The notes under the pieces were generated by a model. That model worked only from the letters and a program-made list of their open reading frames with translations. It had not been told where the DNA came from and made no database searches. A stretch of 63,110 bases of DNA, counting the filler, from Kipferlia bialata (lineage: Eukaryota): NCBI GenBank assembly GCA_003568945.1. It is 8 parts of 8 records of this genome, joined end to end, with 100 filler letters (N's around TTAATTAATTAA, not from the genome) between each part and the next. Parts side by side here need not be neighbours in the genome. Positions count along the whole stretch, not along the records: positions 1 to 10,690 come from BDIP01001370.1; 7 more parts are not named here. One strand, written 5' to 3'. Numbering within the stretch: position 1 is the first letter of the stretch; the number at the start of each line of letters is the position of its first letter. The position numbers were made by a program, and so were the translations under genes. Of this stretch, positions 4,938 through 6,777 are shown piece by piece.

Positions 4938-6777
4938 ATGGGTAACATGCGTGGTCTGGAGGGGGGCGGGAGCAAGGTAGCATCGCCCCGCCCCCCCAGA
5001 GTGGGTGTGGGGGATGGAGATGGAGTGAGAGAGAGAGAGAGAGATGGTGCTGAGCATCTGGAGCGTATGGTGAGGGTGGAGAGTGCCTCCCTGTCGAGCC
5101 AGGCCAGTGTCTTCTATGCCGGGCACCTCTACGCCAGTGCGTGCTACATCGTGTGTCTGCTCTCAGTGCTGATGGTGAGGGTGGGGGTGGTGGTGTTTTC
5201 CAGCACAGGTACGTATATCATTAGTATTTAGTCCTCTCTGCTACGTTGTCTACGTTCATATATCCTAACGTTCCAGAGGGCTGGGGTGCCCTGATAGCTG
5301 ACGTTGTGTGCCTGGGCGTGGGTGTGTATCTGGCCAGGGCCATGGCTCTGGGGAGTCCGGAGAACCCGTATCCTGTGTTCACTTGTAGGTGGGGTCAAGG
5401 AGCCTTATGTATGCCCTACCGTTAAGCACTGTATCATGCCAATGATATTGCGCCAGTACTACTCCCACTGAAGTACTGTATTTTGCCTAATAATGCCGGG
5501 GTTACCCGCAGCCAATGTTTGTCTATACATATTTATAGTAACAGGCGGTTCATTGTACCTCCGTGCTTTGTACATATGTCAGTATGTTCATGCCACCATA
5601 TTCTACTGGTTTTGGATTCTCTCACTGCTTCATTTCCTCTCAGACTGAGAATGGTGTGTGAGCCGCTTGCTACAGTTTCTATATGCAATTCTTGGATAAT
5701 TATCATACCACTCACCTCGGCGCTATCCACCTCTCTCTCTCTCTCTCCCTCTCTCTCTAACATTCAGTGCACTATCCGTGTGTCTCCTTGCCACCTCCCT
5801 TCTGATGGACAGTCCCCCCCCTCTCTCTATATATATGTAAATGTATATATGAATATATATTCTTATCTATGTATATCTCACTGTCAGTGCCCTTTCCGTG
5901 TGTCTCCTTGCCACCTCCCTGCTGGTGGACAGTCCATCCCGAAGTGCCATGCACCTGCTGCCAGAACAGGTTTGATACATGTATATATATATGTATATAT
6001 ATATATAATATTTACAATATATAGTATATACATATACACTACCTATACTGACAGTCCACCCAGAAGTGCAATGCACCTGCTACCTGAGCAGGTATATGCA
6101 TATATAGTATAGACATTGTGTTGTGTACACATATATGTACCACAGTTGTCTATGATGCCCCCCATCCCCCCTCTCTCTCCATCTCACCCTCAGTCTGTGA
6201 CCCTTGGACTCCTCATATACTTCGTGGCCTCAGGTGGACCCGTAAGGTATATAGGTGTATTGTAGGGGACCCCCGCCGTACCTGTCTGACCTTCTCTCTC
6301 CTTCTCTCTCTCACACTCACCCACACACACTCTCTCTATATATGTATATATGTCTCTATATATGTGTATATCTCACTGTGCAGGGGTGACCCCCGCCGTA
6401 CCTGCCTCACCCTGTGGTGCTACACAGTCGCCATGGCAACAGCACTTGTGCAGGTATATATGTATATGCATGTATGCCCTATATATATATGTATATACTA
6501 TGTGCCGTATATGCATATGCCCTCTTGTGCTCCACACTGGCAGAGTCAAGAGGAGTAGGGCAAAATCTTAATTGCAGTATCTGTGTCTGATGTGTCAAGG
6601 ACTCTCTCTCTCTCTGCCCCCTAGCCCCTCATTCCAGCTCTGGCTGTCCCGCTGGGCCCTGTGCACATACCTCGCACTGTCCCCACTCATAGTCATAGAG
6701 GTATGTATGTGTATATGTGTTCATTTATATGTATATATATATACATTTACAGTGTCTATGGGGTAGATATACACTTG

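What the first reader, a model, noticed from the sequence alone, without database searches (positions are those of the whole stretch)
5768..6093. Upstream and downstream echoes meet at a short shared sequence and rebuild a second full exon (A'-x-AB-y-B')
Seen in four cyclase exons. Exon 5888-5969: the 5' echo ends and the 3' echo starts at GACAGTCC (5808, 5928, 6050; offsets 120 and 122 nt). Exon 7327-7413: halves meet at CAGTCT (7285 and 7473). Exon 9237-9333: halves meet near ACCAT (8998 and 9388). Exon 9896-9963: halves meet at CTGTC (~9823 and ~10037). The 5' half keeps its AG and the 3' half keeps its GT, so deleting between the shared sequences would restore an in-frame variant exon. Inference: this looks like an old exon split by insertion of a fresh exon-plus-flanks copy (templated double-strand-break repair), or like pointer-flanked DNA eliminated by recombination, loosely analogous to ciliate IES pointers. 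Not all echo pairs meet; those around the VPS25 exon at 54483 do not.
Basis: partly seen in the sequence, partly recalled or inferred. Interest (0 to 1): 0.85.

Follow-up and report, generated by a model that had tools for sequence, protein, structure and literature searches.

The report
Old allele halves flank working exons
In the marine flagellate Kipferlia bialata, many introns hold half-copies of the neighbouring exon that differ from it mostly at silent codon positions; they are likely pieces of other once-working alleles left behind by imprecise repair between very different chromosomes, so one genome would keep a record of past alleles and of gene exchange.

Summary
The window matches Kipferlia bialata (cyclase KIPB_005714). 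In all four named exons the 5' and 3' echoes overlap, by 8, 6, 3 and 5 nt. Echoes are widespread: 70 beside 112 hand-curated exons, 5' halves upstream, 3' halves downstream, direct. Exact meeting is significant only in the cyclase (5 of 5, 0.55 expected). Elsewhere it is at chance (1 of 13), but both halves flank the same exon too often (10 vs 5.2). So echoes likely come from divergent working alleles. Best reading (0.55): homology-guided but imprecisely joined break repair between divergent haplotypes, in a lineage reported to lack Ku70 and Rad51A but to have Dmc1 and Pol theta. IES-like excision is unsupported. Paired halves are not age-matched, which counts against single events. No reads, cDNA or second isolate were examined. 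This scan earlier noted silent-biased echoes in a sea urchin gene, explained there by dead copies; that null fails here.

The parts
4938..10630 (+). Class III cyclase gene, 17 exons (identical to KIPB_005714 up to the last exon), 18 anchored echoes
   Evidence: (PF00211)
5768..5815 (+). 5' echo A' (acceptor AG kept; 4 of 48 nt differ)
5816..5887 (+). Upstream spacer x, (CT)n/(AT)n-rich, ends in the live acceptor
5888..5969 (+). Live exon AB; shared word GACAGTCC at 5928
5970..6049 (+). Downstream spacer y, starts with the live donor
6050..6091 (+). 3' echo B' (donor GT kept; 6 of 42 nt differ)
6265..6562 (+).
6940..7082 (+). Two lone 3' echoes of exon 6830-6900
7252..7640 (+). 5' echo 7252-7290 (in-register AG lost), live exon 7327-7413, 3' echoes 7473-7526 and 7613-7640; a possible very old 5' copy at about 7148-7190 fell below threshold
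8889..9440 (+). 5' echoes at 8889 (weak), 8957-9005 and 9083-9186 (scaffold gap inside), live exon 9237-9333, 3' echo 9384-9440; AGC/TCT serine swap at 8974
9725..10202 (+). Nested set: 5' echoes 9725-9750 and 9798-9827, live exon 9896-9963, 3' echoes 10034-10079 and 10161-10202; AGT/TCA serine swap at 10193
10459..10488 (+). 5' echo that the public gene model used as its last exon; exon 10585-10630 continues the frame with AG and GT
15069..15094 (+). Single-junction duplication spanning a whole intron in the SDR gene (exon start fused to the previous exon's end)
17507..17986 (-). IQ-motif (IQUB-like, name recalled) gene exon 17986-17887 with four 3' echoes sharing a junction within 4 nt
26471..26974 (-). 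RRP12-like gene exon 26595-26471 with four 5' echoes, differences rising with distance (0, 2, 3, 5)
54375..56069 (+). VPS25-like gene: non-meeting pair around 54483-54566, three 5' echoes of 55023, two 3' echoes past the stop codon (55918, 56038)
61607..62197 (-). Only exact meeting outside the cyclase: exon 61930-61866, 5' echo 62042-62015 and 3' echo 61763-61727 abut with 0 nt overlap; outer older pair too

Best explanation
The echoes are direct half-copies of the neighbouring exon that are likely stranded pieces of once-working alleles, left when a DNA break in or near an exon was likely repaired from a strongly diverged homologous chromosome with imprecise joints. Shown here: the geometry, the synonymous bias, diverged but homologous flanks, exon-centred co-occurrence and signs of decay. 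Inferred steps: (1) K. bialata lineages carry alleles about 15-40% apart at silent sites, with barely alignable introns, so exons are the only good homology. (2) A break is aligned to the homolog by mismatch-tolerant Dmc1/Rad52. About 60-150 nt per side of the donor's exon-plus-flank is copied or transferred and joined to the broken end(s) by microhomology end joining (Pol theta) instead of annealing. (3) Products survive only if one intact exon remains, which puts 5' halves upstream and 3' halves downstream. Two-sided events with untrimmed ends give A'-x-AB-y-B' with a 0-8 nt overlap, trimmed ends give gaps, and one-sided events give lone echoes. (4) Unequal exchange between an echo on one haplotype and the live exon on another then builds arrays that share one junction. 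Echoes are predicted to be spliced out as intron, and no programmed excision is needed.
For: pN/pS 0.154 (99 synonymous, 49 non-synonymous unique differences; 98 of 148 at codon position 3). Spectrum-matched test: 102 of 163 synonymous vs 43+/-5 neutral, corrected ratio 0.22, dead-copy null rejected at p 1e-7. Pairwise 0.22, nearest echoes 0.26, farther 0.16. Simulated dead copies with in-place conversion give 0.51-0.70. Echo-to-echo differences are also silent-biased, 30 of 58, tested against a neutral null only. Two AGY/TCN serine swaps. An echo's flank resembles its own exon's flank (mean percentile 0.71, n=28; 0.74, n=31), yet only 3 of 31 and 5 of 36 beat unrelated flanks, even beside 100%-identical exon parts. 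Similarity ends at the stop codon and appears to start at an ATG, i.e. at coding boundaries rather than splice sites. Polarity: 31 and 30 of 99 exons carry right-side echoes vs 0 and 1 wrong-side; 1 low-complexity inverted hit in 224 comparisons. Both halves on one exon 15 vs 7.8 expected; non-cyclase 10 vs 5.2. Nearest cyclase paralogs found are only 31-58% identical, so they are unlikely donors. The published table lists no Ku70, Rad51A or Rad54 for K. bialata, but four Dmc1, five Rad52, PolQ, Spo11 and Hop2.
Against: No divergent allele was seen: protein searches gave no second close copy and two metagenome scans gave no relative. Paired halves do not share an age (rho 0.06, p 0.83; e.g. 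2 of 21 vs 15 of 44 differences around exon 6384). Exact meeting is at chance outside the cyclase (1 of 13). I know of no standard repair pathway that leaves both broken ends unused for homologous priming while pasting a spanning fragment; mouse double-cut inserts were often inverted or ectopic, and inverted copies are essentially absent here. Donor flanks are unknown, so microhomology at the joints cannot be checked. Divergence rises outward only weakly (12 vs 4, p 0.04). Frames of several small genes rest on open-frame continuity alone.
Confidence: 0.55

Rival explanations
1. The echoes began as old, independent in-place tandem duplications (sister-templated or Pol theta), and their exon parts were later overwritten by gene conversion from working alleles on homologs. 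Meeting in the cyclase reflects break hotspots or luck rather than single paste events. This still needs divergent alleles.
For: Halves not age-matched. Meeting at chance outside the cyclase. A clear single-junction duplication exists at 15069. Flanks are far more diverged than exon parts. Junction ends are ragged.
Against: Both halves co-occur on the same exon beyond chance within genes. Cyclase 5 of 5 holds even with a cyclase-only null. Nested, age-graded pairs at 9896 and 61930.
Confidence: 0.22
2. Assembly artefact: several haplotypes in a non-clonal or polyploid culture were stitched in tandem by a short-read assembler at microsatellites.
For: The published draft of this species is Illumina plus SPAdes from an enriched culture, and 'clonal' does not occur in the paper's text. 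A scaffold gap with overlapping flanks lies inside one array, and an adapter-like stretch (identity recalled) starts a contig. Junctions often sit at simple repeats. Silent-biased differences are what haplotypes would show.
Against: Junctions are unique sequence with short repeats, which a de Bruijn path needs reads to support (general knowledge). Up to five distinct versions of one piece. Lost splice sites (6 of 33 acceptors, 6 of 33 donors) and 1-nt deletions mark dead relics. Strict polarity. No second allele among predicted proteins.
Confidence: 0.08
3. Ordinary dead copies refreshed in place, with the live exon mutating about four times faster than the echo (mutagenic repair at exon-centred hotspots, filtered by selection), which mimics a low pN/pS.
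For: Events are exon-centred. Mutagenic meiotic break repair is reported (PMC7615360, search listing only). More GC-to-AT than AT-to-GC changes from exon to echo.
Against: Echoes lie only about 100 nt from the exon, so they should share the mutagenic tract (inference). Echo-to-echo differences are also silent-biased relative to neutral. Serine swaps need multi-base changes.
Confidence: 0.08
4. Echoes are functional now: pointer-guided DNA excision (IES-like) or non-canonical splicing makes A'B', A'B or AB' variant exons, and selection on those keeps them coding-like.
For: Low pN/pS, no stops in trimmed echoes. Rebuilt exons are full length and in frame. Most splice dinucleotides are kept (27 of 33 each).
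Against: No GT-AG pair in register at the junctions (read by eye). Shared words differ or are absent. Frameshifts and lost sites. Echoes past a stop codon. Most pairs leave 9-78 nt gaps. Only 10 of 70 allow in-frame read-through. No variant protein in two searches (weak evidence).
Confidence: 0.05

Closest known systems
Inter-homolog end joining, tandem duplication and fragment insertion at SPO11 double cuts in mouse germline (Lukaszewicz et al., bioRxiv 10.1101/2020.06.23.168138; passages read)
   Same: Offset breaks on homologs are joined with short microhomology; small hotspot fragments (15-349 bp) are inserted at breaks; tandem duplications form.
   Different: There the events are rare, strongest without ATM, and often inverted or ectopic. 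Here they are fixed, abundant (70 beside 112 exons), direct, in place, and between versions diverged at silent sites.
Internal tandem duplications of exon-intron junctions (Gao and Lynch 2009, recalled, seen only in a reference list) and the sea-urchin echo case e1-9861148
   Same: Direct partial exon copies with one splice site, tolerated inside introns.
   Different: Dead copies predict pN/pS of 0.5 or more and flanks as similar as the exon part; both fail here.
Break-repair intron gain in Daphnia pulex (PMC4202315; passages read)
   Same: Insertion at a break in an exon with 4-12 bp direct repeats at the ends.
   Different: There the insert becomes a GT-AG intron and the old halves stay coding. 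Here the insert holds the working exon and the outer halves are dead.
One-sided invasion / HR coupled to end joining, and Pol theta templated insertion (recalled; searches gave listings only)
   Same: Homology-guided copying ended by a non-homologous joint gives a lone direct partial copy.
   Different: It does not by itself give meeting pairs; Pol theta inserts are usually short and copied in cis (recalled).
Ciliate IES pointers (recalled)
   Same: Short direct repeat at both ends of a removable segment.
   Different: The segment here contains the only intact exon, the gene needs no excision, and most pairs have no shared word.

Membership tests
Ciliate IES / pointer-guided elimination | Short direct repeat at both boundaries of every element | tested here: not met
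   3-8 nt words in the four named cyclase exons; none at 61930; 12 of 13 non-cyclase pairs leave gaps
Ciliate IES / pointer-guided elimination | Eliminated segment interrupts the gene and must be removed for expression | tested here: not met
   The 17-exon frame is intact using the inner exons and aligns to paralogs
Ciliate IES / pointer-guided elimination | Excised form exists in a somatic genome or as circles | not testable with these tools
   No reads were examined
Simple tandem duplication with a dead copy | Direct, adjacent copies whose polarity leaves one intact exon | tested here: met
   31 and 30 of 99 exons right-side, 0 and 1 wrong-side; 1 low-complexity inverted hit in 224
Simple tandem duplication with a dead copy | pN/pS between copies of 0.5 or more | tested here: not met
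   0.15-0.26 observed vs 0.51-0.70 simulated
Simple tandem duplication with a dead copy | Duplicated intron flank about as similar as the duplicated exon part | tested here: not met
   Nine echoes with 100%-identical exon parts of 24 nt or more have flank scores of 0.06-0.42
Break-repair insertion / inter-homolog end joining | Insert spans the break, with a few nt of overlap or microhomology | tested here: met
   Inner segments 188-251 nt, overlaps 0-8 nt in the cyclase and at 61930; not met in the other pairs
Break-repair insertion / inter-homolog end joining | Both outer halves come from one molecule (same age) | tested here: inconclusive
   No correlation over 18 short pairs; nested pairs at 9896 and 61930 do match
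Break-repair insertion / inter-homolog end joining | Donor is the homologous chromosome | not testable with these tools
   Inferred from pN/pS only; no second allele or isolate found
Break-repair insertion / inter-homolog end joining | Junctions lie at mapped break hotspots | not testable with these tools
   Needs Spo11-oligo or break mapping; Spo11 is listed for the species
Mutually exclusive / alternative exons | Each copy is a whole exon with AG and GT | tested here: not met
   All 70 anchored echoes are partial, with one splice site at most
Intron gain by duplication or break repair | New GT...AG boundaries at the junctions | tested here: not met
   Junction-adjacent sequences listed show no in-register GT-AG pair (read by eye)

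The most novel reading that the evidence does not exclude
K. bialata replaces exons by pasting a fresh exon-plus-flank from a deeply diverged homolog into the break, through a Dmc1/Pol theta route that fills in for missing NHEJ and Rad51. The displaced halves are pushed outward, so introns are an ordered archive of extinct or foreign alleles, genome-wide, and direct evidence of cryptic sex or hybridisation in a free-living fornicate.
Probability: 0.3. Interest if true: 0.88.

Novelty: new variant of a known kind. Interest (0 to 1): 0.68.

Why it matters
If the echoes are allele relics, a single assembly holds a large sample of past alleles with measurable selection. That makes allelic diversity and cryptic gene exchange testable in fornicates, the group that includes Giardia. 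It would also show what break repair does in a eukaryote without canonical NHEJ or Rad51A, suggest a source of intron length and sequence turnover, and pose a splicing question: how the right AG or GT is chosen when 27 of 33 decoys keep theirs. Practically, echoes mislead annotation: the public model of this cyclase ends in one.

Tried and rejected
No DNA or RNA reads were examined. Searches for a second allele or an A'B' protein found only paralogs at 31-58% identity; with word-limited candidates this is weak evidence. Metagenome scans with RRP12 exon 1 and with the cyclase found no relative. Age matching of paired halves failed. Paralog donors were rejected. Dead copy with in-place conversion was rejected by simulation (single lineage, no population model). 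Indirect selection on echoes as conversion donors was rejected by argument only: conversion slow enough to leave 20-27% silent divergence gives too weak a selective effect. Decay of mutually exclusive exons was rejected because it should leave wrong-side halves (0 and 1 seen). Reverse-splicing models were disfavoured because echoes also end at a stop codon and start at an ATG. Six of 76 hits were dropped before counting: two GA-rich matches to exon 7708, the second half of the gap-split echo, one overlapping another echo, and two short internal matches. Literature searches showed no title or abstract opening that describes this pattern; the library lacks most subscription papers. Earlier-findings look-ups by place found nothing.

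Full report
Setting. The window is eight contigs joined by N-spacers. The first exon of the gene in question is identical to the start of a public protein named KIPB_005714 of Kipferlia bialata, a class III cyclase. That protein maps exon by exon onto 4938-10507 with canonical AG/GT sites. Its last exon is itself an echo, and 10585-10630 continues the frame. I curated 112 exons in 13 gene chains by hand, all reading through in frame. Frames are independently supported for the cyclase and by Pfam hits, several below cut-off, for the SDR, RRP12-like, IQ-motif and ESCRT-II/VPS25-like genes. The other frames rest on open-frame continuity, and gene A has two open frames. Contig 32356-43032 was not curated, and only one exon of 43133-53808 was.

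Observation. A codon-blind gapless scan of each exon against its two flanks gave 76 hits in 224 comparisons, at a score reached by 0.4% of 2575 unrelated comparisons. Seventy are anchored: 33 upstream copies start at the exon's 5' end and 37 downstream copies stop at or within 7 nt of its 3' end. An anchored scan of 99 short exons found 31 with a 5' half upstream and 30 with a 3' half downstream, against 0 and 1 on the wrong side. Inverted copies are essentially absent (1 low-complexity hit in 224). Nearest offsets are 59-154 nt, median 107 (n=52). Two corrections: the ACCAT words are a codon out of register, and the echo of exon 7327 has lost its in-register AG.

Is meeting more than chance? 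Overall yes: 5 of 13 vs 1.2-1.8 and 6 of 18 vs 1.6. The signal is the cyclase: 5 of 5 vs 0.55, or P 0.0035 with a cyclase-only pool. Elsewhere 1 of 13 meet vs 1.04 expected; that one (61930-61866) abuts exactly, and the rest leave 5-78 nt gaps. The overlap windows were chosen after seeing the data. What does generalise is co-occurrence: both halves flank the same exon 15 times vs 7.8 in within-gene permutations, and 10 vs 5.2 without the cyclase (p 0.002). Two echoes share an intron in 9 of 82 cases, about what the marginal rates imply (no formal null run). Paired halves are not age-matched (rho 0.06).

What the echoes are. Differences from the live exon are 99 synonymous and 49 non-synonymous (pN/pS 0.154; 98 of 148 at third positions; no stops in trimmed echoes, 2 in untrimmed). 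With the substitution spectrum preserved, 102 of 163 are synonymous vs 43+/-5. Counted pairwise, the ratio is 0.22 (nearest 0.26, farther 0.16), and each set rejects the dead-copy value of 0.5 (p 3e-4 to 6e-8). Simulated dead copies, with or without in-place conversion, give 0.51-0.70. The bias holds without the cyclase (0.185). Two codons switch between AGY and TCN serine. Echoes in arrays mostly carry private variants (54 private, 8 shared), and their mutual differences are silent-biased too (30 of 58). The flanks behave differently: they are homologous to the live exon's flank (percentile 0.71 and 0.74) but barely alignable, even beside identical exon parts. Similarity stops at coding boundaries, including a stop codon and an apparent ATG. 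Echoes also decay: 6 of 33 acceptors and 6 of 33 donors are lost, and two carry 1-nt deletions. This is how diverged working alleles compare, and paralogs are too distant to be donors. The allele pool itself was not observed.

Mechanism (inferred). The published survey reports no canonical NHEJ in metamonads and loss of Rad51A in fornicates (PMC8516963, section 8 read). Its supplementary table lists for K. bialata four Dmc1, five Rad52, PolQ, Spo11, Hop2, Msh2 and XPF, and no Ku70, Rad51A, Rad54 or Mnd1 (one supplementary PDF unreadable). Dmc1 stabilises mismatched triplets (PMC6719624, abstract only). Between haplotypes that share only short exons, repair would be positioned by homology but could finish by microhomology joining, leaving direct duplications of one or both arms; selection keeps those with an intact exon. 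Offset inter-homolog joining and fragment insertion at one hotspot are documented in mouse (passages; supplements closed). Arrays with a shared junction and similar junction-side spacers fit later unequal exchange between an echo and a live exon. Whether meeting pairs are one paste or two events at a hotspot is open: co-occurrence and nested pairs favour one, and the lack of age matching favours two. I put 0.55 on direct inter-allele repair and 0.22 on old duplications later overwritten by alleles; both need divergent alleles. Artefact gets 0.08, exon hypermutation 0.08 and current function 0.05.

Artefact. If the window derives from the published draft, it is an Illumina/SPAdes assembly with a 130-150x coverage peak, from an enriched culture (PMC5874029, methods read). 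A gap with overlapping flanks lies in one array. Unique junctions, five versions of one piece, decayed sites and strict polarity argue that the feature is real, but no reads were examined.

Comparison and verdict. It works like break-repair duplication or insertion and is not an IES system: defining features were tested and not met. It fails two tests for simple dead tandem copies. Searches showed no description of the pattern in titles or abstract openings; passages of the genome paper and of PMC6679479 do not mention it. Novelty: new variant of a known kind. Interest 0.68.

Noticed in passing
window spacers beside echoes, e.g. 7414-7472 and 9006-9063: Mirror asymmetry: (CT)4 in 15 of 33 upstream spacers vs 1 of 37 downstream, and (GA)4 in 0 of 33 vs 7 of 37 (echo-free introns 9 and 3 of 57). 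Two spacers are 90% reverse complements. This could be (TC)n filler added to broken 3' ends, or just polypyrimidine tracts.
   Followed up: partly
window 32356-53808: Two GC-rich contigs (57-59%) with few dinucleotide repeats show almost no echoes (one at 53420), and gene 10825-13523 has 0 in 11 exons, against 18 in the cyclase; echo density varies by region. These contigs were barely curated.
   Followed up: partly
window 10825-13523 (+): 11-exon GHKL ATPase gene (weak HATPase_c_3 hit); a Topo VIB-like Spo11 partner or MutL-type protein is my recalled guess, untested.
   Followed up: no
window 10459-10507 vs 10585-10630: The public model of the cyclase takes an echo as its last exon; the live exon is probably 10585-10630 and the gene runs off the contig.
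   Followed up: yes
window 58783-58818 (-): Echo upstream of an apparent start codon at 58644, itself starting at an ATG, so echoes are not confined to introns.
   Followed up: partly
window 10791-10814: Contig begins with an Illumina-adapter-like stretch (identity recalled).
   Followed up: no
window 9112-9149: 38-N scaffold gap whose flanks overlap by 17 nt, probably a false gap within one echo.
   Followed up: yes
all spacers: No spacer is shorter than 36 nt upstream or 45 nt downstream, although a donor needs far less; the size floor is unexplained.
   Followed up: no
window 32123-32254 (+), 13913-16179 (+), 21577-29118 (-): CFAP20-domain exon, short-chain dehydrogenase gene and RRP12-like gene.
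   Followed up: partly
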